A DNA stretch of 64,000 nucleotides, taken from assembly GCF_034670125.1 (NCBI RefSeq), contig NZ_JAXMOC010000002.1, positions 385,768-449,767 on the forward strand, given 5' to 3'. This document shows, piece by piece, positions 2,935 through 40,145 of this stretch. The stretch is from Maricaulis sp. (GTDB lineage Bacteria > Pseudomonadota > Alphaproteobacteria > Caulobacterales > Maricaulaceae). The notes under the pieces were generated by a model. It did no database searches, had not been told where the DNA came from, and saw only the letters and a list, made by a program, of their open reading frames with translations. The position numbers and the translations under genes were made by a program. Every line of letters starts with the position of its first letter. Positions within the stretch are counted from its first letter, which is position 1.

Positions 2935-4224
2935 TTAAATGAAGTGCCGCCGGGCCCACGCTTCCGTGACGCGCAAGGTGGTACCGATCAATATCTGCAG
3001 ATCCTCGGCACTGATCACATAGGGAGGCATGAGATAAATGATATTGTTGAACGGTCGCACCCACACACCGGCATCGACGAATTCGGCCTTCAGGATATCC
3101 AGCTCGGGCAGACTCGCCATCTCGATCACCCCGATCGCGCCCTGCCAGCGCACATCCACCACGCCCGGGATGTGACGCGCTGCCGGCAACAACGCCGCAA
3201 ACATTGATTCGATGGCGTGAACCTGATCCAGGCGCGGCTCGCGTTCGAACAGATCGAGCGAGGCATTGGCGGCGGCGCAGGCGGCCGGATTGCCCATATA
3301 AGTCGGCCCGTGCATCAGCGCCTTGCCCGGGTCCTCGTCCCAGAAGAGTTCGAACAAGCGGGTAGTAACCAGCGTCGCCGCCAGTGGCAGCGTACCGCCG
3401 GTCAATGCTTTGGAGACGGTCATGATGTCAGGCGTGACACCAGCCTTTTCTGCGGCAAACAGTGTGCCCAGGCGACCAAAACCGGTCATGATCTCGTCGA
3501 ATATCAAAGGCAGCCCATGACGGTCACAAAGGTTGCGTAGCACTCGCAGCGTCGCGGCATCATGAAAGCGCATGCCACCTGCGCCTTGGACGAGAGGCTC
3601 GACAACCACACCGGCCAGTGTGTCCGCATGGTGCGACACCAAAGCGTCAAGACTGTCGGCGCGATCTGCGTCGATCGGCAGGTCAGCGATCAATTGCCGG
3701 GCGATCGCACCAGCGAAAAGGGCGTGCATACCCTCTTCCGGATCACACACCGACATCGTCGCAAGCGTGTCACCATGGTACCCGCCGCGAAAGGCGAGAA
3801 ACCGCGTGCGGCCCCGCTGCCCCCGATTGATGAAGGACTGGACGGCAACCTTCATCGCGATTTCGACCGATACCGATCCGGACTCGCAGAAGAAAACATG
3901 ATTGAGCTCACCCGGGGCCTTGGCCGCGAGGCGCCGCGCCAGCCGCTCCGCCGGGTCATGGGTCAACCCGCCCAGCATCACATGCGGGACGGCATCAAGC
4001 TGGCGCTTTACGGCGTCGATGATGTGGGGATGGCGATAGCCGTGGCAGACCGTCCACCAGGACGAGACACCGTCGATCAGCTCGCGGCCGTCCGCGAGCG
4101 TCAGGCGGACGCCCTCCGCGCTGGCAACCGGAAGGGCGGGCGGTGTTGTTTTCATCTGGGCGTAGGGTCGCCACAGCGCATGATCAGCCGGATCGAAATT
4201 CATCTTGTCTGCATCCCGAAACAT
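2935..4224 (-). CDS. bioA: Adenosylmethionine-8-amino-7-oxononanoate (DAPA) aminotransferase
   Basis: LWRPYAQM, DGVSSWW, YHGDT, IFDEIMTGFGR, VSKALTGG (PLP Lys), HGPTYMGN; alternative start 4203. Confidence 0.95.
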   Translation of the reverse strand: MFRDADKMNFDPADHALWRPYAQMKTTPPALPVASAEGVRLTLADGRELIDGVSSWWTVCHGYRHPHIIDAVKRQLDAVPHVMLGGLTHDPAERLARRLAAKAPGELNHVFFCESGSVSVEIAMKVAVQSFINRGQRGRTRFLAFRGGYHGDTLATMSVCDPEEGMHALFAGAIARQLIADLPIDADRADSLDALVSHHADTLAGVVVEPLVQGAGGMRFHDAATLRVLRNLCDRHGLPLIFDEIMTGFGRLGTLFAAEKAGVTPDIMTVSKALTGGTLPLAATLVTTRLFELFWDEDPGKALMHGPTYMGNPAACAAANASLDLFEREPRLDQVHAIESMFAALLPAARHIPGVVDVRWQGAIGVIEMASLPELDILKAEFVDAGVWVRPFNNIIYLMPPYVISAEDLQILIGTTLRVTEAWARRHFI

Positions 4225-4267
4225 GTGGAGGCTTTAGCAGGCCACAATTCTGTGCGACAGGCATTGT

Positions 4268-5449
4268 ATGACAACTGCCAGTGCTTCCCTCGAGCGTTTC
4301 GCAGCCAGCAAGCTGGCCGGGCTCGACCGGCGCAACCTGCGTCGCCGGACCCGCGAGACCCTGCCGCTGGGCGGCGCCTTGGTCGAACGCGATGGTCGCC
4401 AGCTGATCAATGCCTGCTCGAACGACTATCTCGGCCTCAGCCAGCATCCCGATGTCACCGCGGCAGCGGCAGCGGCAGCGTGCCGCTACGGCGCGGGGGC
4501 CGGGGCGTCACGCCTGGTAACGGGCGGTCACCCCCTGCTGTTCGACCTGGAAGCGCGACTGGCAACCTTCAAGGGAACCGAGGACTGTCTTGTGTTCGGG
4601 TCCGGCTATCTGGCGAATCTGGCGATCACGCCCGCCCTGGTCGGAAAGGGCGATATCGTGTTCGTGGACTCCCTCGCGCACGCCTGCCTTCATGCCGGTG
4701 CGCGCCTGTCTGGCGCACGCGTGGAAACCTTCCCCCACAATGATATGGCGGCACTCGCCTCCCGGCTGACCGAGCTGAGGGGCGACCACCGTCATGCGAT
4801 GATCCTGACCGACGGCGTTTTCTCCATGGATGGTGATCTCGCGCCCCTGCCCGACCTCTTGGCCCTGGCAGACAGGCACAACGCCTGGACGCTGGTCGAT
4901 GACGCACATGGGATCGGCGTGATCGGTAACGGCCATGGCAGCACGCATGCCTTCCAGCCGCCGGTAACGCCGCCACTGCAGATGGGCACGCTGTCCAAAG
5001 CTCTCGGCAGCTATGGCGGCTATGTGTGCGCGTCGAAAGATGTCTGCGACCTGCTCCGGACGCGGGCCCGCCCCCTTGTTTTCACCACCGCCCTGCCGCC
5101 GGCCAGCATCGCGGCGGCACTGACTGCGCTGGACCTGATTGCCCGAGACCCGGTGCTTCGCGACCGCCCCATGAGGCTGGCCCGCCGTTTCTGCCGGGCG
5201 CTGGGGCTGGCCGAACCCGCCTCACCCATCGTCCCGATCATCATCGGAAAAGAGGCGGACGCCCTCGCCGCGTCCGCCACCCTCGAGACGGCCGGGTTTC
5301 TGGTCACAGCAATACGTCCGCCGACGGTCCCGCGCGGCACGGCTCGCCTGAGGGTGACGTTCAATGCGGCGCACAGCGAGGCCGACATTGACCGGCTCGC
5401 CTCCACCCTGAAGTCGATCCTGCAACCCGCCGAGGCCGCCGAGTCATGA
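4268..5449 (+). CDS. bioF: 8-amino-7-oxononanoate synthase
   Basis: CSNDYLGL, GAGASRLVTG, DGVFSMDGD, VDDAHG, GTLSKALG, IRPPTVP. Confidence 0.95.
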   Translation: MTTASASLERFAASKLAGLDRRNLRRRTRETLPLGGALVERDGRQLINACSNDYLGLSQHPDVTAAAAAAACRYGAGAGASRLVTGGHPLLFDLEARLATFKGTEDCLVFGSGYLANLAITPALVGKGDIVFVDSLAHACLHAGARLSGARVETFPHNDMAALASRLTELRGDHRHAMILTDGVFSMDGDLAPLPDLLALADRHNAWTLVDDAHGIGVIGNGHGSTHAFQPPVTPPLQMGTLSKALGSYGGYVCASKDVCDLLRTRARPLVFTTALPPASIAAALTALDLIARDPVLRDRPMRLARRFCRALGLAEPASPIVPIIIGKEADALAASATLETAGFLVTAIRPPTVPRGTARLRVTFNAAHSEADIDRLASTLKSILQPAEAAES

Positions 5450-6111
5450 GACCGCTTTTTTTCACCGGAACCGGCACGGATATCGGAAAGACCCATGTGC
5501 TGTGCGAAATGATCCGGGCCTGGCGAGCGGGCGGCAAGGCCATGCGCGTCCTCAAGCCGGTGATTTCCGGGTTCAACCCGTCCGCTCTCAACGAGACCGA
5601 CACCATCCGCCTGATGCGGGCCAACGGAGAGGCGTTGACCGGAGAAGGCGTGCAGGCTGTCTCCCCCTGGCGGTTCAGGGCGCCACTTTCGCCCGATCTC
5701 GCCGCCCGCAAGGAACGGCGCGACCTGCCACTCGAGACAGTCGTCAGCTGGTGCCTCGACCATGTCAGCCGTGACATGCCCACAGTCATCGAGGGCGCTG
5801 GCGGTGTCATGTCTCCGATCGCCTCTGACGGACTCAATCTTGACCTGATCCGTGAACTCGACGCTCATCCGGTGCTGGTCGCCGGCAGTTATCTTGGAAC
5901 CATTTCTCACACGCTGACGGCACTGAGAGTGCTCGATGGGCGCTGCACGGTCATCCTCAATGATCATCCCCGTGGCGAGACACCGGTAGCGGAGATCGTC
6001 CGCACTTTGAGCCGGTTCGCGCCGCGTGCCGATATACGCATTTATGAGCCGGCGGCCCCGGAGGCACTGCTCGACCTGTTCAAACGGGCGACAGCAACAT
6101 CGCTCGACTGA
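5446..6111 (+). CDS. bioD: Dethiobiotin synthase
   Basis: FTGTGTDIGKT P-loop, LKPVISG, IEGAGG, LGTISHT; ATGA overlap with bioF. Confidence 0.93.
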   Translation: MRPLFFTGTGTDIGKTHVLCEMIRAWRAGGKAMRVLKPVISGFNPSALNETDTIRLMRANGEALTGEGVQAVSPWRFRAPLSPDLAARKERRDLPLETVVSWCLDHVSRDMPTVIEGAGGVMSPIASDGLNLDLIRELDAHPVLVAGSYLGTISHTLTALRVLDGRCTVILNDHPRGETPVAEIVRTLSRFAPRADIRIYEPAAPEALLDLFKRATATSLD

Positions 6112-6179
6112 CCGATCCGTCGGTGCTGTCCGGTTTGGGGGGGCGGCCGTCATGCCACTCGGGTCACAACCGGCCGGTA

Positions 6180-6255
6180 TGGTGGGCGGTGAGGGGCTCG
6201 AACCCCCGACCCTCTCGGTGTAAACGAGATGCTCTCCCAACTGAGCTAACCGCCC
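6180..6255 (-). tRNA. tRNA-Val(TAC)
   Basis: Reverse complement GGGCGGTTAGCTCAGTTGGGAGAGCATCTCGTTTACACCGAGAGGGTCGGGGGTTCGAGCCCCTCACCGCCCACCA. Confidence 0.98.
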
Positions 6256-6325
6256 GGGTATCGGTGCCCGTCTGCGGGGCAGGACGCGCTTGTAATGCCT
6301 TCCACCCGGGTGGCGCAAGCCCGCT

Positions 6326-7079: not shown

Positions 7080-7787
7080 ATGTTCACTACCCTTGTCTCC
7101 CTGTTCAGGGCCCGGTCGGAATCAAGCCGCCAGTCCCTGGAAACCGAGAACGCTGCCCTGCTCATCGAGCAAAACATCCGGGATGCCGAAAAGGGTCACG
7201 ACGCAGCCAAGCGCTCGTTGGCGCAACTCATTCTGCGGGAGCGCCAGGAAGACACGGCGCTGCAGGCACTCACCGCAAGGCGCCAGGACATGGAAGCGCG
7301 AACCCGCGACGCCCTGAAGGCGGGGATGGAAGCGCTGGCGGGTGATGGAGCCAACGCCCTCGCCGACCTGGACAATGAAAACACCGCACGCACCAACGCC
7401 CTCACCCGGACCCGGTCGAGCGCCAGGCGGCTGCGTTTGCTGCTCGAAAAAACCGACCGCCGCCTGACAGATCTCAGACAAGGCCTTGTCACGGCGCAAG
7501 CGCTTGAAGACGAGCGCCGTGGTGGAACCGCCCTGCAGGGAAGCCTCAGCGGGCTCGGCGCCTTGATGGAGGGAGAGGCCGTCCTGAAGCGCGCACTTGC
7601 CGCCCTGGATGCCGGTGGCTTCGCCGACATTCTTGATGACATCAACGCGGACCTGTCAGGCGATGGCCTGATCGAGCGCATGGCAGACCAAGGGTTCGGT
7701 GCCTCGGTAAAAGCGCGTGGAGACGACATTCTCAATCGGATCAGGGCGGGGCTGGACACCGCGCCGACTGATGCTCAGCCGGTCTAG
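7080..7787 (+). CDS. PspA/IM30-family coiled-coil protein
   Basis: AAGGAG RBS; ENAALLIEQNIRDAE..AKRSLAQL and AREALKAG-type PspA heptad pattern; no TM segment. Confidence 0.8.
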   Translation: MFTTLVSLFRARSESSRQSLETENAALLIEQNIRDAEKGHDAAKRSLAQLILRERQEDTALQALTARRQDMEARTRDALKAGMEALAGDGANALADLDNENTARTNALTRTRSSARRLRLLLEKTDRRLTDLRQGLVTAQALEDERRGGTALQGSLSGLGALMEGEAVLKRALAALDAGGFADILDDINADLSGDGLIERMADQGFGASVKARGDDILNRIRAGLDTAPTDAQPV

Positions 7788-8122: not shown

Positions 8123-9277
8123 TCAACTGCTAACAGACACCTTGTCGATCGCGTCCATTGCATAGCAGCCGAGCAGTTTGATCTCTCGGGTATGCTCTTC
8201 CAGCACCGACATGGACTGGCGGATCTTGCCATCCTCCATATGCCCCTCGACATCCATGATAAACATCTCTTCCCAGGGATTGCCGGCAATCGGTCGCGAT
8301 TCGAGCTTCACCAGATTGATGCCGTTGTCCCGGAAGCCGATCAGTGCATTGACCAGCGAGCCCGGCGTGTCGCGGGTGGTGAACATCATTGATGTCTTGC
8401 ACTCGACCTCGCGGGTCGGGAGCTTGGATTTGCGTCCGATGACGATGAACCGGGTAATGTTCTGCTCGTGATCGCCGACATTGCGCTCGAGAATATCCAT
8501 GCCGAACAGGCGTGCCGCATCCTCGCCGGCGACGGCCACGGCCGTGTCATCATCCTCCAACAGGCGCTCCAGGGCCCGCGTGGTTGACGCCGCCATATGA
8601 GTTTCGAGCTCTGGATGGGAACTGATATAGCGACGGCATTGGGCCAGCGCCTGCGGGTGTCCGAACACCCGGCTGACTCGTCCCTGCCCGCTCGCCCGAC
8701 CGACCAGACAATGATCGACCCGCAGCAGGAATTCGCCGATGATCTGCGTGTGCGAATTGATCAGGATGTCATAGACCTCATTGATCGATCCAGTCGTCGT
8801 GTTTTCGATCGGGATCACACCATAATCGACCTCGGCGTTCTCGACGGCGCGAAAGATCGATACGAAGTCACGCTTGGGGGACGGCACGACTGTCGCATTG
8901 CGACGCTGGAAGACTTTCTGGGCCGCAATGTGACTGTAGCTGCCAGGCCCCCCAAGATAGGCTACCGACGCTTCGTTCAGCTCGTCATTGCGCATTGAAT
9001 CGAACTGCTGGCGCTGCCGTCGGACCGAGGCCTCGAACAAGGCGTGAAACAGGGTTTCAACCAGCTCCGCCGGGACGCCTTTTTCGGCGCCTTGCCGGAC
9101 AGCCGCCCGCAACACATCGCGCTCACGCTCCCTGTCCCGCACCGGGCTACCGGATCGCGCCTTGGCCTTGAGGATGTCCTCCACGAGGCCGGCACGACGT
9201 GCGATGGCATCAATCAATTCCTGATCGATCTCGCTGATTGCCGAGCGGATTTCATCCCGCGTCATGTCCGTTGCCAT
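8123..9277 (-). CDS. pheA: Bifunctional chorismate mutase/prephenate dehydratase (P-protein) with an ACT domain
   Basis: AroQ CM domain (IRSAISEIDQEL, VRDRERE), PDT motifs AYLGGPGSYSH, PIENTT and NITRF, ACT motif LESRPIAGNPWEEMF; start ATG 9277 with an AAGGGA SD. Confidence 0.93.
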   Translation of the reverse strand: MATDMTRDEIRSAISEIDQELIDAIARRAGLVEDILKAKARSGSPVRDRERERDVLRAAVRQGAEKGVPAELVETLFHALFEASVRRQRQQFDSMRNDELNEASVAYLGGPGSYSHIAAQKVFQRRNATVVPSPKRDFVSIFRAVENAEVDYGVIPIENTTTGSINEVYDILINSHTQIIGEFLLRVDHCLVGRASGQGRVSRVFGHPQALAQCRRYISSHPELETHMAASTTRALERLLEDDDTAVAVAGEDAARLFGMDILERNVGDHEQNITRFIVIGRKSKLPTREVECKTSMMFTTRDTPGSLVNALIGFRDNGINLVKLESRPIAGNPWEEMFIMDVEGHMEDGKIRQSMSVLEEHTREIKLLGCYAMDAIDKVSVSS

Positions 9278-9296
9278 GTGTTTGATCCCTTCAGAC

Positions 9297-9330
9297 AAAA
9301 GAAAAGGGCCTCCCCGGTGAGGGAGGCCCT
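9297..9330 (-). terminator. Attenuator terminator upstream of pheA
   Basis: Minus strand AGGGCCTCCC-TCACCG-GGGAGGCCCT (perfect 10-bp stem) followed by TTTCTTTT, ending about 20 nt before the pheA ATG. Confidence 0.9.
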
Positions 9331-9354
9331 GGTTTCGTTGCGCCGTCGCACAAG

Positions 9355-9426
9355 CTAGCCGGTCACCGCCCCCAATTGGGTTGCGTTGCTAAAATAGGCC
9401 GCAAAAAAGTACGATGCATTGTTCAT
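9355..9426 (-). CDS. Phe/Tyr-rich attenuator leader peptide MNNASYFFAAYFSNATQLGAVTG
   Basis: Manual translation of ATG 9426 to TAG 9355; codons 6-12 are TAC TTT TTT GCG GCC TAT TTT; lies between a promoter-like element and the terminator preceding pheA. Confidence 0.8.
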   Translation of the reverse strand: MNNASYFFAAYFSNATQLGAVTG

Positions 9427-9433
9427 GGCCTGC

Positions 9434-9462
9434 AGAGTGGCGGGCCCGACTTGCACGGTCAA
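9434..9462 (-). promoter_or_regulatory. Candidate sigma70 promoter for the pheA leader; predicted TSS at the leader ATG
   Basis: TTGACC (9462-9457), N17, CACTCT (9439-9434), then 7 nt to ATG 9426. Confidence 0.5.
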
Positions 9463-9497
9463 TCCATTTTCTGCGCTTCACCGCGAGCCTTGCGCAC

Positions 9498-9527
9498 AAA
9501 AATGGCCGGAGACGACGCCTCCGGCCA
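9498..9527 (-). terminator. lon terminator
   Basis: tggccggag-N7-ctccggcca stem followed by TTTTT on the minus strand. Confidence 0.8.
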
Positions 9528-9558: not shown

Positions 9559-11967
9559 CTAGTGTGCAATCGGCTGTCCGGCATCGCCTTCACCACCCGG
9601 CTGCGACGCGATCGCGGCCAGGGCCGCCTCGTCCGCTTCGGTCCACTCGACCGGCTCGACAGCCTCGACCAACGCCCGCATCAGGACTTCATCCGCCGTC
9701 TCGACCGGAATGATCTCCATACCCTCTTTGACATTGTCCGGGATCTCGGCGAGGTCCTTTTCATTGTCCTTGGGGATGAGGACCGTCTTCACGCCACCGC
9801 GCAGGGCGGCCAGCAGCTTCTCCTTGAGGCCGCCGATCGGCAGCACCCGGCCACGCAGGGTGATCTCCCCGGTCATGGCGATGTCCTTGCGGACCGGAAT
9901 ACCGGTCAGAACAGAGACGATCGCGGTCATCATGCCAACGCCCGCAGACGGCCCATCCTTGGGGGTCGCACCTTCGGGCATGTGGACATGGATGTCCGCC
10001 GCCCGGAAAATGGTCGGCTTGATACCCAGCGACGGGGCCCGCGACTGGACGAAGGAATTGGCCGCAGAAATCGACTCCTTCATCACGTCACGCAGATTGC
10101 CGGTCACCATCATCTTGCCACGGCCGGGCATGCGGACCGCTTCGATGGTGAGGAGGTCGCCGCCGACTTCGGTCCAGGCCAGACCGGTGACGATACCGAT
10201 CTGGTCGTGGTCTTCGGTCTCGCCGAAGCGGAATTTCCGAACACCGGCAAACTCGCCGAGATTCTCGGCCGACACGGTGATCGAGCTGACCTTGCCACGT
10301 TCGATCTGGACGACGGATTTGCGGGCCAGATTGGCGATCTCACGCTCGAGGCTACGGACACCGGCCTCGCGGGTGTAATAGCGGATCAGGTCGCGCAGAC
10401 CGTCCTCGGTCAGCGACCACTCGCTGTCCTTGAGCGCATGGTTTTTCATCTGCTTGGGGATCAGGTGGCGACGCGCGATTTCGACCTTTTCATCCTCGGT
10501 GTAGCCAGCGATACGGATGATCTCCATCCGGTCCAGCAGCGGCTGAGGCAGGTTGAGCGTGTTGGCCGTGGTTACGAACATGATGTCAGAGAGGTCGTAA
10601 TCGACCTCCAGATAGTGATCATTGAAATTGGCGTTCTGTTCCGGATCGAGCACTTCAAGCAGGGCCGAAGCGGGATCGCCGCGATAATCGGCACCCAGCT
10701 TGTCGATCTCGTCGAGCAGGAATAGCGGATTGGAAGAATTCACCTTCTTCATCGACTGAATGATCCGGCCCGGCATGGAGCCGATATAGGTGCGGCGGTG
10801 GCCACGGATCTCGGCCTCGTCGCGCACGCCGCCCAGCGACATGCGCACGAAGTCACGACCCGTCGCCTTGGCGATCGAGCGACCAAGCGAGGTCTTGCCG
10901 ACGCCGGGCGGGCCAACGAGACACAGGATCGGGCCCTTGAGCTTCTTGGTGCGGGCCTGGACCGCGAGATGCTCGAGGATGCGCTCCTTGACCTTGTCGA
11001 GGCCATAGTGATCCGTCTCGAGCACGCCTTCGGCGCGTTCCAGATCGTTTTTCAGGCGTTTGCGCTTGCCCCACGGGACCGACAGGATCCAGTCGAGATA
11101 ATTGCGAACGACAGTAGCCTCGGCCGACATCGGGCTCATATTGCGAAGCTTCTTGAATTCGGCATCGGCCTTGGTGCGGGCTTCCTTGGAGAGCTTGGCT
11201 TCGGCCAGCTTTTCTTCCAGCTCGGCCAGCTCCTCACGGCTGTCATCACCCTCACCCAGCTCGCGCTGGATCGCCTTCATCTGCTCATTGAGATAGTATT
11301 CCCGCTGGGTCTTCTCCATCTGGCGCTTGACGCGCGAACGGATTTTCTTCTCGACCTGCAGGACGCCGATCTCGCCTTCCATCATGCCAAGGATGCGCTC
11401 GAGCCGACGGTTGACGTCCGGCTCCTCCAGCAGCGACTGTTTTTCCTCGATCTTGACGGCCAGGTGGGCGGCGATGCTGTCCGAAAGCTTACCCGGCTCG
11501 CGGATCTGCGACAGCGACGCCAGCGCTTCAGGCGGAACCTTCTTGTTGAGTTTGACGTAGTCATCGAACTTGGCCGACACAGTCCGCATCAGGGCTTCCA
11601 GCTCCGACACGTCACCTGGATCTTCATCCAGGACCTCGCAGACAGCTTCGTAGAAATCACTGCGCTCGGTAAAGGCGCTGATTTCCACGCGAACACCACC
11701 CTCAACGAGTACCTTAACGGTCCCGTCGGGAAGCTTCAGCAATTGCAGGACAGACGCGATGACGCCGGTTTTGTGGATGGCATCAGCCCCCGGTTCGTCA
11801 TCGGCGGCCGTACGTTGGGTTGCGAGCAGGATTTGCTTGTCGGCCTTCATCACCTCTTCCAGGGCACGGACCGATTTGTCCCGGCCCACGAAGAGCGGCA
11901 CGATCATGTGCGGAAATACGACGATATCGCGCAGCGGAAGAAGAGGAAGCGTCTTCGTAGTGGACAT
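9559..11967 (-). CDS. lon: ATP-dependent protease La
   Basis: [34 protein letters not shown] (catalytic Ser), GGLKEK; start MSTTKT behind GGAGA. Confidence 0.98.
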
Positions 11968-12122
11968 GTTTTCTCCATTCGCGCTCACACGGGGGAGCGC
12001 GGGCAGACCTGTTGCTAGTTTGGTCTACAGATCGTGACTGAACGGCTCACCGGACCGTCGCGTCGACCGCGAGGCCCGGAAGTCCGGCTTGCTTCAGGAG
12101 GTGGCGATCCGACCTCGAAAGG

Positions 12123-38938: not shown

Positions 38939-39092
38939 AAACGCCGGCAGTCGGTCGCAGCCCTTGTTGGGGCCGACTTCAGTTTCGACTCATATGGCAT
39001 GAGTGATTTTTACCTCTTCTTTCCGTTTGCTGGTTAGTTTCAGGATTAACCGCAGGGCGAAGCCATTCGCCTCCGCAGGAAAGGACTTTCTG

Positions 39093-40145
39093 GTGAACGG
39101 TCGACTGCTTGGCAAAGAAGGACGTGAGTTCGCGCTCAAAGCGCTGGATCTCATGGATCAATTCGGCATAGCGCCGACCCCGGAAAACTATTCCGTCTGG
39201 ATCTGCTTCGCGAGCGACACCAATCCGGAACTCTGCGAATCGCTCAAGAGTCATATCGAGGCCGGCGGAAACTTTTCGGAATCCGTCAATAATGACCTGT
39301 TCGAACAGTATTTTCAGTGGAAAGCCATCCAGGACGCCGTCCTCGAAAGCGGCGGCGTCATGTGCCGCGAACTCGGCGTCGTCAAGGAATCCCTCGAAGC
39401 TGCCGAGCGCGACACCGCCGCTTACGGCGCGGCCCTGGAGGGCGCGAGCCACGAGCTGACCGCGACGCCGGACGCCCCGGGCATGAAAAAGCTGGTGGAA
39501 AGCCTCGTCTCGGCTACGGCCCGCATGCAACGTCGCAGCCAGGCGCTGGAAGACCGGCTGCAGGCGACGTCCAATGAAGTCACCCAGTTGCGGTCACATC
39601 TGGAAAAGGTTCGCGAAGAAGCCATGACCGATGCCCTCACCGGCATCGCCAACCGGAAACGCTTCGATGAGTCCCTGCGCCGTGCCCGCCGTGACGCCGA
39701 TACCAAGAAAGAGCCGCTGAGCCTGATTCTCTGCGACATCGACTTCTTCAAGCGCTTCAATGACACTTGGGGTCACCAGACCGGCGACCAGATCATCCGG
39801 TTCGTGGCAGGCTGCCTCACCCGGCATGCCGGCGAGTCCCATCTTGTCGCCCGCTATGGCGGTGAAGAGTTCGGGATCGTGATGCCGAACACGACGCCCG
39901 ACGTGGCTGAGCAGGTGGCCGAGAAAATCCGCAAAACCGTCGAATCAAAGAAACTGCTTCGTAAATCAACCAATGAAGACCTCGGCAATATCACGGTCTC
40001 ATTGGGCATCGCGAACTACCACGAAGGCGAGTCGATCGAGGAGTTGATCGAACGGTCCGATACCAACCTTTATCGGTCGAAAACCGAGGGCCGCAATCGG
40101 ACCACGACTGATGGCAGCCGCGAAAGATCTCGCAGCGCGGCCTGA
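39093..40145 (+). CDS. Diguanylate cyclase with coiled-coil plus GGEEF (DgcB-like architecture)
   Basis: PTPENYSVW N-domain, TDALTGIANR, DIDFFKRFNDTWGH, ARYGGEEF; GTG start behind AAGGA. Confidence 0.9.
   Translation: MNGRLLGKEGREFALKALDLMDQFGIAPTPENYSVWICFASDTNPELCESLKSHIEAGGNFSESVNNDLFEQYFQWKAIQDAVLESGGVMCRELGVVKESLEAAERDTAAYGAALEGASHELTATPDAPGMKKLVESLVSATARMQRRSQALEDRLQATSNEVTQLRSHLEKVREEAMTDALTGIANRKRFDESLRRARRDADTKKEPLSLILCDIDFFKRFNDTWGHQTGDQIIRFVAGCLTRHAGESHLVARYGGEEFGIVMPNTTPDVAEQVAEKIRKTVESKKLLRKSTNEDLGNITVSLGIANYHEGESIEELIERSDTNLYRSKTEGRNRTTTDGSRERSRSAA

What the first reader, a model, noticed from the sequence alone, without database searches (positions are those of the whole stretch)
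9297..9462. Hidden Phe+Tyr-sensing transcription attenuator with a leaderless leader peptide upstream of pheA
Seen (absent from the ORF track), in order on the minus strand: a promoter-like TTGACC-N17-CACTCT; 7 nt later an ATG with no SD; a 23-codon ORF MNNASYFFAAYFSNATQLGAVTG with Y-F-F-A-A-Y-F at codons 6-12; stop at 9355; a perfect 10-bp terminator with U-tract ending about 20 nt before the pheA ATG. The distal leader segment GGGGGCGGUGA (codons 18-22) can pair with the terminator 5' arm (GGGGGC with GCCUCC, one G-U) or its loop (CGGUGA with UCACCG). It would be free when a ribosome stalls at codons 6-12 and covered when it reaches the stop. Known: E. coli pheL is Phe-only; the S. meliloti trpL attenuator is leaderless and its RNA and peptide have roles in trans. 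Inference: a dual-amino-acid attenuator suited to the chorismate mutase step shared by Phe and Tyr, possibly undescribed in this lineage. The released RNA of about 130 nt and the peptide could have second functions.
Basis: partly seen in the sequence, partly recalled or inferred. Interest (0 to 1): 0.85.

Follow-up and report, generated by a model that had tools for sequence, protein, structure and literature searches.

The report
Phe/Tyr leader-peptide attenuator of pheA
A never-annotated 23-codon mini-gene rich in phenylalanine and tyrosine codons, followed by a terminator hairpin, sits just before the pheA gene of a marine Maricaulis bacterium and is conserved across its family, so it is almost certainly a classical amino-acid-sensing transcription switch in a new lineage and with a twist (mixed Phe/Tyr codons, no 5' leader), not a new kind of mechanism.

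Summary
The element is real. The same promoter, short ORF, alternative hairpins and terminator precede the bifunctional chorismate mutase/prephenate dehydratase gene in 32 Maricaulis loci and in seven loci of other Maricaulaceae, including Oceanicaulis, Marinicauda, Glycocaulis and Alkalicaulis. All 39 leaders carry 2-5 Phe and 1-3 Tyr codons. The -35 box lies 35-37 nt before the ATG in every locus, and no Shine-Dalgarno sequence is present, which predicts a leaderless mRNA. Folding and pair counts support a four-segment attenuator: 1:2 hairpin, 2:3 antiterminator enclosing a small hairpin, and 3:4 terminator. There are compensatory changes in the terminator and one in the antiterminator. The element scores below Rfam's Phe_leader threshold, is missed by NCBIfam leader_PheL, and its peptides are absent from a 15-billion-protein collection. 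A model built from Maricaulis nevertheless finds E. coli pheL. I conclude it is a divergent pheL-type attenuator, the first I could find outside Gammaproteobacteria. Dual Phe+Tyr sensing is plausible but untested. Trans roles for the RNA or peptide have no support. No usable transcript data exist. Interest is moderate.

The parts
9457..9462 (-). -35 box TTGACC
   Evidence: TTGAC[CG] is invariant and lies 35-37 nt upstream of the leader ATG in all 39 loci.
9434..9439 (-). Weak -10 box CACTCT (family pattern CAnnnT, preceded by GC)
   Evidence: Its position is conserved while its sequence varies. It lies 6-7 nt before the ATG. The simple sigma-70 scan does not call it.
9355..9426 (-). Leader ORF (pheL-like), 23 codons plus TAG, with a predicted leaderless start at A9426
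   Evidence: It is conserved in 39 loci, and the aromatic codons show synonymous TTT/TTC and TAT/TAC changes. The peptide is absent from protein databases.
9391..9411 (-). Regulatory codon block, codons 6-12 (Y F F A A Y F)
   Evidence: F8, Y11 and F12 are invariant in Maricaulis, and F and Y swap at codons 6/7. All 39 leaders have 2-5 Phe and 1-3 Tyr codons.
9378..9388 (-). Segment 1 (leader nt 39-49, codons 13-17)
   Evidence: It pairs with segment 2 in the RNAalifold consensus. 98.8% of cells are paired over 8 pairs. The computed energy is -9.4 kcal/mol.
9359..9374 (-). Segment 2 (leader nt 53-68, UGGGGGCGGUGACCGG, codons 18-23)
   Evidence: Nearly invariant. Third codon positions are more conserved than first positions. 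It pairs either with segment 1 or with segment 3.
9338..9353 (-). Small hairpin B (leader nt 74-89) directly after the stop codon, enclosed by the antiterminator
   Evidence: A hairpin is predicted at this place in every sequence whose output I could read; the output was cut, so folds for L012-L019 were not seen. Its sequence varies, often with a GNRA-like loop. Computed energy -7.3 kcal/mol.
9318..9332 (-). Segment 3 (leader nt 95-109), the partner of segment 2 in the antiterminator; it overlaps the terminator 5' arm and loop
   Evidence: Masked folds give this pairing in every sequence seen. 94.4% of cells are paired. Pair col53:col114 changes U-A to A-U in 7 sequences.
9305..9330 (-). Intrinsic terminator hairpin (segments 3:4)
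   Evidence: G-C to A-U compensatory changes occur at two pairs, in 7 and 3 sequences. 97.3% of cells are paired. Computed energy -23.2 kcal/mol.
9297..9304 (-). U-tract of the terminator (TTTCTTTT)
   Evidence: Conserved in all loci.
9286..9292 (-). Shine-Dalgarno-like GAAGGGA of pheA
   Evidence: It lies 8 nt before the pheA ATG.
8123..9277 (-). pheA, the bifunctional chorismate mutase/prephenate dehydratase; the only gene under the attenuator
   Evidence: 36% identical to E. coli PheA over its full length. The next gene (7080-7787, PspA family) is convergent on the + strand.
9503..9527 (-). Terminator of the upstream lon gene (boundary of the unit, not part of the attenuator)
   Evidence: lon is identified at 9559-11988.

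Best explanation
This is a classical ribosome-mediated transcription attenuator of pheA, a divergent pheL-type leader.

Proposed mechanism:
1. Transcription starts from a TTGAC-type promoter at, or within a nucleotide of, the A of the leader AUG. A 70S ribosome therefore loads directly on a leaderless 5' end (inferred).
2. The ribosome translates a 23-codon ORF whose codons 6-12 are Tyr and Phe codons, mostly the U-ending TAT and TTT.
3. When Phe-tRNA, and probably Tyr-tRNA, is well charged, the ribosome runs to the stop codon. There it covers segment 2 (GGGGGCGGUGACCGG), or it is released and segment 2 pairs with segment 1. Segment 3 is then free to form the 3:4 terminator, and a transcript of about 130 nt ends at the U-tract, 20 nt before pheA.
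4. When charging is low, the ribosome stalls on the last aromatic codons (Tyr11-Phe12) and covers segment 1. Segment 2 pairs with segment 3 around the small hairpin B, the terminator cannot form, and RNA polymerase reads into pheA.

Shown here: the sequence features, their conservation, the mutually exclusive pairings, and some covariation.

Inferred: the transcription start, translation of the ORF, the response to Phe, and the contribution of Tyr.
For: Conservation:
- The same unit lies upstream of the CM/PDT gene in 32 Maricaulis sequences (PheA 70-100% identical) and in 7 loci of other Maricaulaceae (44-63% identical), whatever the upstream gene.
- A covariance model built only from Maricaulis finds those 7 loci full length, at 24-55 bits and E from 1e-3 to 4e-11. 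It finds one copy in the 64-kb window and none in the Hyphobacterium or Balneolaceae loci.

Coding signal:
- F8, Y11 and F12 are invariant, with synonymous TTT/TTC and TAT/TAC variants, and F and Y swap at codons 6/7.
- All 39 leaders have 2-5 Phe and 1-3 Tyr codons.
- U-ending codons dominate in the leaders (TTT:TTC 84:43, TAT:TAC 68:15). The neighbouring genes show 12:37 and 19:13.

Promoter:
- TTGAC[CG] lies 35-37 nt before the ATG in 39 of 39 loci, with unrelated sequence in between and no SD.

Structure:
- RNAalifold recovers the 1:2 hairpin and the terminator.
- The terminator has G-C to A-U double changes at two pairs.
- With nt 1-48 masked (ribosome at codon 12) and the 3' arm not yet made, every Maricaulis sequence in the part of the output I could read folds into the same 2:3 antiterminator, at about -19 to -36 kcal/mol. 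With the ribosome at the stop codon, all of them fold the terminator (its output was cut, so L012-L019 were not seen). L034-L036 behave the same way.
- The antiterminator helix is 94.4% paired. One U-A to A-U double change joins a wobble position of codon 18 to a terminator-loop base.
- Computed energies are 1:2 -9.4, 2:3+B -24.1 and 3:4 -23.2 kcal/mol.

Precedents:
- E. coli pheL-pheA (PMC3082878).
- Leaderless trpL in S. meliloti (PMC6614838).
- Abundant leaderless mRNAs in Caulobacter (PMC4117421).
- The F-Y-F leader aroR in C. glutamicum (PMC11802643).
Against: - There are no transcript or ribosome data. No RNA run holds the window's leader. RNA contigs of a related strain are too patchy to show ends.
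- The -10 box is weak, and a consensus sigma-70 scan finds no promoter here.
- Support for the 2:3 pairing is mostly sequence conservation: only 1 of 13 pairs covaries, and in 10 of 30 sequences that pair is not formed. A shifted 6-bp register is equally conserved.
- The naked 110-nt prefix already prefers the antiterminator thermodynamically. The basal termination level therefore depends on kinetics I cannot compute.
- In four distant genera, my automated masked folds did not give a clean antiterminator.
- Tyr codons in the only tested F/Y leader (aroR) reportedly had no regulatory effect (PMC11802643).
Confidence: 0.85

Rival explanations
1. The mechanism is the same attenuator, but it senses phenylalanine only. 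The Tyr codons would be tolerated one-base neighbours of Phe codons (TAT/TTT), or would merely slow the ribosome, without giving a physiological response to tyrosine.
For: F and Y swap freely at codons 6/7 by single second-position changes. One leader (L002) keeps only one Tyr. C. glutamicum aroR (F-Y-F) is reported to respond to Phe limitation but not to Tyr availability (PMC11802643). The regulated enzyme commits prephenate to Phe, and its homologues carry an ACT domain typical of Phe feedback control.
Against: Tyr11 is invariant in 32 of 32 Maricaulis leaders, with both TAT and TAC used. 38 of 39 leaders across at least five named genera keep 2 or more Tyr codons. In every genus a Tyr codon lies among the last aromatic codons, the ones closest to segment 1. 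E. coli pheL shows that a Phe-only leader is workable (7 Phe, 0 Tyr).
Confidence: 0.35
2. The promoter, ORF and terminator form an independent small gene (an sRNA or a small protein) that simply ends before pheA. pheA would have its own promoter and would not be controlled by read-through.
For: The predicted terminated transcript of about 130 nt would resemble attenuator-derived sRNAs such as rnTrpL (PMC6614838). No transcript data exclude a second promoter.
Against: Only about 20 nt separate the U-tract from the pheA ATG. The stretch between the leader stop and the terminator varies in sequence and holds no conserved -35/-10 boxes. No promoter-like site was found. The unit always accompanies pheA even where the upstream genes differ. 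The conserved, mutually exclusive pairings of segment 2 would have no purpose in a plain sRNA. The distal peptide sequence changes by frameshift in L028 while the RNA sequence is kept.
Confidence: 0.05
3. A translation-independent riboregulator. A protein, tRNA or metabolite would bind the leader RNA and choose between terminator and antiterminator, and the ORF would be incidental.
For: Segments 1 and 2 are conserved at the nucleotide level, including third codon positions.
Against: The 5' half is conserved as codons and not as RNA, with synonymous changes in the Phe/Tyr codons. Aromatic-rich ORFs are retained in distant genera with a different nucleotide sequence. The ATG keeps a fixed distance from the promoter. 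The stop codon always falls within or just after segment 2. No riboswitch or T-box family matches.
Confidence: 0.03

Closest known systems
E. coli / gammaproteobacterial pheL-pheA attenuator (Rfam RF01859 Phe_leader; NCBIfam NF038149 leader_PheL)
   Same: A short ORF with clustered Phe codons, then alternative hairpins and a GGCCUCCC...GGGnGGCC-UUUU terminator, immediately upstream of a bifunctional chorismate mutase/prephenate dehydratase gene. PheA is 36% identical over its full length. RNA-model similarity is reciprocal: Phe_leader scores 24-32 bits, full length, on 6 of the 11 Maricaulaceae leaders searched. The Maricaulis model scores 40.9 bits (E 6e-9) exactly on annotated E. coli pheL.
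   Different: It occurs in Alphaproteobacteria (Maricaulaceae) rather than the gamma subdivision, the only group where pheL genes are described (PMC3082878). The ORF has 19-23 codons against 15. Tyr codons are interleaved, whereas E. coli has 7 Phe and 0 Tyr. It is predicted to be leaderless and has no Shine-Dalgarno sequence. It scores below Rfam's gathering score of 55. The peptide is not recognised by leader_PheL, although the E. coli control is. Whether the likeness reflects common descent (co-transfer with pheA) or convergence cannot be decided here.
Corynebacterium glutamicum aroR leader upstream of aroF (Neshat et al. 2014, as summarised in PMC11802643 and PMC3890552)
   Same: A ribosome-mediated attenuator in aromatic amino acid biosynthesis whose leader peptide mixes Phe and Tyr codons (F-Y-F).
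   Different: It controls DAHP synthase, not pheA, and belongs to an actinobacterium with an unrelated sequence. There, Tyr availability reportedly had no effect. Here, Tyr codons are more numerous and strictly conserved, but they are untested.
Sinorhizobium meliloti trpL / rnTrpL attenuator of trpE(G)
   Same: An alphaproteobacterial attenuator whose leader ORF begins at the transcription start (leaderless), with a terminated leader RNA of about 110 nt (PMC6614838).
   Different: It has Trp codons and a different regulated gene. Trans-acting functions of the RNA and peptide are demonstrated there (PMC6614838, PMC7298713). Nothing here suggests them, and the distal peptide is not conserved as a peptide.
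Multi-amino-acid attenuators (E. coli thr: Thr+Ile; ilvGMEDA: Leu/Val/Ile, from textbook knowledge; Caulobacter ilvBN leader with Ile and Val codons, PMC4117421)
   Same: One leader peptide carries regulatory codons for more than one end product of a branched pathway.
   Different: The amino acids and pathways differ. A Phe+Tyr combination on pheA is not described in the papers I could search.
Leaderless cysteine-responsive short-ORF attenuators of mycobacteria (bioRxiv 10.1101/834739)
   Same: A leaderless short ORF rich in one amino acid's codons controls downstream genes.
   Different: The phylum and amino acid differ. No relation in sequence or terminator-based architecture was examined.

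Membership tests
Rfam RF01859 Phe_leader | Covariance-model score at or above the curated gathering score (55 bits) | tested here: not met
   The window scores 27.5 bits (E 0.015), full-length match at 9299-9427. Five related loci score 24-32 bits.
Rfam RF01859 Phe_leader | Short ORF with clustered Phe codons directly upstream of pheA | tested here: met
   The window leader has 3 Phe codons, and the family has 2-5, within codons 3-14. The gene downstream is CM/PDT.
Rfam RF01859 Phe_leader | Recognisable relation to bona fide pheL leaders | tested here: inconclusive
   Model R1, built from Maricaulis only, hits E. coli K-12 pheL over the full length at 40.9 bits, E 6e-9, starting at the annotated pheL ATG. 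The score may come largely from the U-rich codons plus a similar GC-rich terminator, so homology and convergence cannot be separated.
NCBIfam NF038149 leader_PheL | Peptide matches the 15-residue PheL profile (cut-off 24 bits) | tested here: not met
   Three Maricaulaceae leader peptides give no hit at E up to 10. The E. coli PheL control scores 34.4 bits.
Classical ribosome-mediated transcription attenuator (trp/phe/his type) | Leader ORF with regulatory codons for the pathway's end product | tested here: met
Classical ribosome-mediated transcription attenuator (trp/phe/his type) | Intrinsic terminator between the leader ORF and the structural gene | tested here: met
   with compensatory changes at two pairs.
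Classical ribosome-mediated transcription attenuator (trp/phe/his type) | Mutually exclusive 1:2, 2:3 and 3:4 pairings, placed so that a ribosome on the regulatory codons frees segment 2 and a ribosome at the stop codon covers it | tested here: met
   Constrained folds of the Maricaulis sequences and of L034-L036. The stop codon lies within or 3-15 nt after segment 2 in all loci. These are predictions, not probing data.
Classical ribosome-mediated transcription attenuator (trp/phe/his type) | Read-through increases when the cognate tRNA is poorly charged | not testable with these tools
   This needs starvation or reporter experiments.
Leaderless mRNA | [quoted passage not shown] | tested here: inconclusive
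   Promoter geometry predicts it: the -35 box is 35-37 nt from the ATG in 39 of 39 loci, the -10 box is 6-7 nt from the ATG, and there is no SD. No 5'-end data are available.
Dual-function attenuator RNA/peptide (rnTrpL/peTrpL type) | The terminated leader RNA or the peptide acts on other targets | not tested
   No data. L028 changes the peptide's C-terminus by frameshift while keeping the RNA sequence, and C-termini differ between genera. Both points argue against a conserved peptide function.

The most novel reading that the evidence does not exclude
In Maricaulaceae the pheL-type attenuator has been rebuilt into a true two-signal sensor. Interleaved Tyr and Phe codons, one of each directly in front of segment 1, would make expression of the chorismate mutase/prephenate dehydratase respond to shortage of either aromatic amino acid. 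This would fit if the enzyme's mutase domain is the cell's only source of prephenate. Ribosome loading would occur on a leaderless 5' AUG. The pheL-pheA cassette may have been acquired from a gammaproteobacterium next to tRNA-Val and then rewired, from Phe-only to Phe+Tyr and from SD-led to leaderless.
Probability: 0.35. Interest if true: 0.55.

Novelty: new variant of a known kind. Interest (0 to 1): 0.4.

Why it matters
- It adds a well-supported regulatory element that is invisible to annotation. It is missed by Rfam's threshold, by NCBIfam and by gene callers, yet it is present in a whole family of marine alphaproteobacteria.
- It extends pheA attenuation beyond the Gammaproteobacteria.
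- It offers a clean natural system for testing whether mixed Phe/Tyr leaders really integrate two amino-acid signals. The only tested case, aroR, reportedly did not.
- It also allows a test of how leaderless initiation is coupled to attenuation.
- In practical terms, it shows that family-specific covariance models are needed to find attenuators in under-studied lineages. The alignment and model made here could seed such a family.
- It does not reveal a new mechanism.

Tried and rejected
- RNA evidence. No RNA-seq run holds the window's leader. RNA contigs from a related strain (L032) cover pheA only in patches at depth 2-7 and miss the leader, so they say nothing about 5' or 3' ends.
- Other Rfam hits. 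Matches to ctRNA_p42d, Cupriavidus-1, suhB and others cover only the terminator hairpin and fall far below their thresholds, so I rejected them.
It is not conserved.
- Pair counts for hairpin B. The alignment-based figure is poor (57.8% paired) because the region carries indels. I rely on the per-sequence folds instead.
- Masked folds for Oceanicaulis, Marinicauda, Glycocaulis and Alkalicaulis. The fixed masks did not give a clean antiterminator. I treat this as inconclusive rather than negative.
- Second Phe/Tyr-rich short ORF in the window (38999-39037, + strand). It precedes a GGDEF gene and has no terminator, so I judged it unrelated.
- Other chorismate mutases.
- Vitreschak et al. 2004 (FEMS Microbiol Lett), on proteobacterial attenuators, is not in the library. 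An earlier mention of this element there cannot be excluded. Maricaulis does not occur in any of the 15 listed hits of a search for attenuation and leader peptide.
Full report
**What is in the window.**

- TTGACC at 9462-9457, a 17-nt spacer, and CACTCT at 9439-9434.
- Seven bases without any Shine-Dalgarno-like motif, then ATG at 9426-9424.
- A 23-codon ORF, MNNASYFFAAYFSNATQLGAVTG, ending in TAG at 9357-9355.
- A GC-rich hairpin at 9330-9305 (11 pairs, 8 of them G-C, 4-nt loop), followed by TTTCTTTT.
- GAAGGGA, and the ATG of a 384-residue protein at 9277.

That protein is a bifunctional chorismate mutase/prephenate dehydratase (NF007910 at 320 bits; CM_2, PDT and ACT domains in its homologues). 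It is 36% identical to E. coli PheA from end to end.

Upstream lie tig, clpP, clpX and lon. lon has its own terminator at 9527-9503. The next gene downstream of pheA is a convergent PspA-family gene on the other strand. pheA is therefore the only gene behind the hairpin.

Among the 736 ATG-started ORFs of 10-45 codons in the window, only two have five or more Phe/Tyr residues within seven codons.

**Organism and conservation.**

The PheA protein places the window in Maricaulis, a marine stalked alphaproteobacterium. The best match is a MAG at 97% identity.

In the window and 31 further Maricaulis loci (PheA 70-97% identical to the window's), the 330 nt upstream of pheA contain the same unit. 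This holds where lon is not the upstream neighbour.

I then fetched more distant homologues (44-63% identical). The unit is also present in two unnamed lineages, in a Maricaulaceae MAG, and in Oceanicaulis, Marinicauda, Glycocaulis and Alkalicaulis. It is absent in Hyphobacterium and in the Balneolaceae loci.

A covariance model built only from the Maricaulis alignment finds all seven distant leaders full length (24-55 bits, E from 1e-3 to 4e-11). It finds a single copy in the 64-kb window, and nothing in the loci that lack the ORF. This is one coherent RNA family.

**The ORF behaves as a translated regulatory ORF.**

- In Maricaulis, codons 8 (Phe), 11 (Tyr) and 12 (Phe) never change amino acid, but they use both synonymous codons. 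Codons 6 and 7 swap between Phe and Tyr. Codons 2-5 are free.
- Across all 39 leaders there are 2-5 Phe and 1-3 Tyr codons. 38 of the 39 have at least two Tyr codons. Only one leader has a Trp codon.
- In the distant genera the nucleotide sequence is different, but the peptides remain aromatic-rich: FFGFYFY, YFGFYF, FFYGFFY, FFFGGYFY, FFYGFYF, YVYGFAY..F and FYRLFSYF.
- U-ending codons, which need wobble decoding, dominate in the leaders (TTT:TTC 84:43, TAT:TAC 68:15). In pheA, lon, clpX and clpP the preference is weaker or reversed (12:37, 19:13). These counts are not phylogenetically independent.
- The distal half of the ORF (codons 13-23) is constrained as RNA, because third positions are as conserved as or more conserved than first positions. 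In L028 a one-base deletion changes the frame and the stop codon while the RNA motif GGGGGCGGUGA is kept.

**Promoter and the leaderless prediction.**

TTGAC[CG] lies 35 or 36 nt before the ATG in all 32 Maricaulis sequences and 35-37 nt before it in the other seven. The spacer and the 6-7 nt between the -10 element and the ATG are not conserved in sequence, and they never contain an SD.

The -10 element is weak (CAnnnT preceded by GC), and the consensus sigma-70 scan does not call the promoter.

The geometry puts the start of transcription on the A of the AUG, or one base before it. This is an inference. Its plausibility rests on two things: leaderless mRNAs are frequent in alphaproteobacteria (375 in Caulobacter, 171 in S. 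meliloti; PMC4117421), and the S. meliloti trpL leader is itself leaderless (PMC6614838).

**RNA structures.**

1. RNAalifold on 30 distinct Maricaulis leaders predicts three elements:
   - a hairpin between leader nt 39-49 (segment 1, codons 13-17) and nt 54-63 (segment 2);
   - a small hairpin after the stop codon;
   - the terminator.
2. The terminator shows G-C to A-U double changes at two pairs, in 7 and 3 sequences, and is 97% paired. The 1:2 hairpin is 99% paired, with only one-sided changes.
3. I masked nt 1-48 to mimic a ribosome with codon 12 in the A site, and truncated the RNA before the terminator's 3' arm. Every Maricaulis sequence in the part of the output I could read then folds into the same antiterminator, at about -19 to -36 kcal/mol. 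The output was cut, so L012-L019 were not seen. In this fold nt 53-68 (UGGGGG.GGU..CCGG) pair with nt 95-109, which include the whole 5' arm of the terminator, and the helix encloses the small hairpin B.
4. With a ribosome on the stop codon, the terminator forms in every sequence seen.
5. The three closest outgroups give the same picture. The four most distant gave unclear results with my fixed masks.
6. The antiterminator helix is 94% paired. One pair joins the wobble base of codon 18 to a base of the terminator loop. It switches from U-A to A-U in seven sequences, including between close relatives (L006 versus L007). It is unpaired in ten other sequences.
7. For the window, the computed energies are -9.4 (1:2), -24.1 (2:3 with hairpin B) and -23.2 kcal/mol (3:4).
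8. The pairing with the terminator loop is specific to this strain.

**Mechanism.**

The anatomy is that of a classical four-segment attenuator.
- A ribosome stalled on the last aromatic codons (Tyr11, Phe12) covers segment 1. Segment 2 then captures segment 3, and transcription continues into pheA.
- A ribosome that reaches the stop codon covers segment 2, or it releases and allows 1:2 to form. The terminator then forms, and an RNA of about 130 nt ends 20 nt before pheA.
- Stalls at codons 6-8 would not reach segment 1. Those codons probably act by delaying the ribosome (inference).
- The naked 110-nt prefix already prefers the antiterminator thermodynamically. Basal termination must therefore be set kinetically, which I cannot compute.

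**Relation to known families.**

- Rfam's Phe_leader matches the window over its full length, but at 27.5 bits against a gathering score of 55. It matches five related loci at 24-32 bits.
- NCBIfam's leader_PheL does not recognise the peptides, although it does recognise the E. coli control.
- The peptides are absent from a collection of about 15 billion predicted proteins. The element is therefore truly unannotated.
- In the other direction, the Maricaulis model hits E. coli K-12 pheL from its annotated ATG to its terminator at 40.9 bits. The two terminators are alike: GGCCUCCC...GGGGGGCC in E. coli and GGGCCUCCC...GGGGAGGCCC in the window.
- The element is thus a pheL-type attenuator in how it works. 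Formal membership of RF01859 or NF038149 is not met. Common descent, for example by co-transfer with pheA, cannot be told apart from convergence.
- pheL genes are described only from the gamma subdivision (PMC3082878). Maricaulis does not occur in any of the 15 listed hits of my search on attenuation and leader peptides.

**Phe plus Tyr.**

The strict conservation of Tyr codons, and their position among the critical last aromatic codons in every genus, argue that they are selected. E. coli pheL has none.

A rationale exists if the P-protein's mutase domain also feeds tyrosine synthesis. I could not check whether these genomes have another chorismate mutase.

The only tested mixed leader, C. 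glutamicum aroR (F-Y-F), is reported to respond to Phe but not to Tyr (PMC11802643). I therefore put the attenuator itself at 0.85, the leaderless start at about 0.75, and a real tyrosine response at roughly 0.5.

**Trans functions.**

Nothing supports a second role for the RNA or the peptide. The peptide's C-terminal half is not conserved as a peptide.

**Verdict.**

The element is a new lineage-specific variant of a textbook mechanism, and it deserves moderate rather than high interest.

Noticed in passing
window 38999-39037 (+): A 12-codon ORF, MSDFYLFFPFAG. It is the only other short ORF in the window with 5 or more Phe/Tyr residues in 7 codons. It lies between a DEAD-box helicase gene and a GGDEF diguanylate cyclase gene (39093-40145), about 55 nt before the latter. 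No terminator-like site follows it.
   Followed up: partly
window 6180-6255 (-); L034, L036, L037, L038, L039, L041 just after pheA: tRNA-Val(TAC) follows the pheA stop codon within about 14-50 nt in most other Maricaulaceae. In the window it lies 1.9 kb further on, with a PspA-family gene and a TetR-family gene in between. The order lon-[leader]-pheA-tRNA-Val looks ancestral and would fit insertion of pheA next to a tRNA gene.
   Followed up: partly
window 5020-6318 (-): This mechanically listed 432-codon ORF overlaps the tRNA-Val gene and has no NCBIfam or Pfam hit. It is probably over-called or not a gene.
   Followed up: no
window about 9463-9505 (-), and the same place in L001-L033: Conserved motifs upstream of the -35 box. 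A T-run followed by TGCA/TGCGC sits about 40 nt upstream, and GCA or GGA sits directly before TTGAC, even in loci where the upstream gene is not lon. A subgroup has GTTAACC 16 nt upstream of TTGACG. This could be a protein-binding site or an UP-like element giving a second layer of control.
   Followed up: no
L038 (Hyphobacterium), 1200-1500: This member of the same family has the bifunctional pheA and the tRNA-Val after it. It has no aromatic leader ORF and no terminator before pheA, and the covariance model finds nothing. The attenuator was either lost there or gained after that lineage split off.
   Followed up: partly
L028 (Maricaulis MAG), leader region: A one-base deletion in codon 15/16 shifts the leader frame, so that it ends at a TGA inside the conserved GGUGAC, three codons early. 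The RNA motifs stay intact. This is a natural test showing that the distal leader is constrained as RNA.
   Followed up: yes
window 2935-5449: The biotin genes bioA (2935-4224, -) and bioF (4268-5449, +) lie downstream of the tRNA-Val. They are unrelated to aromatic amino acid synthesis.
   Followed up: no
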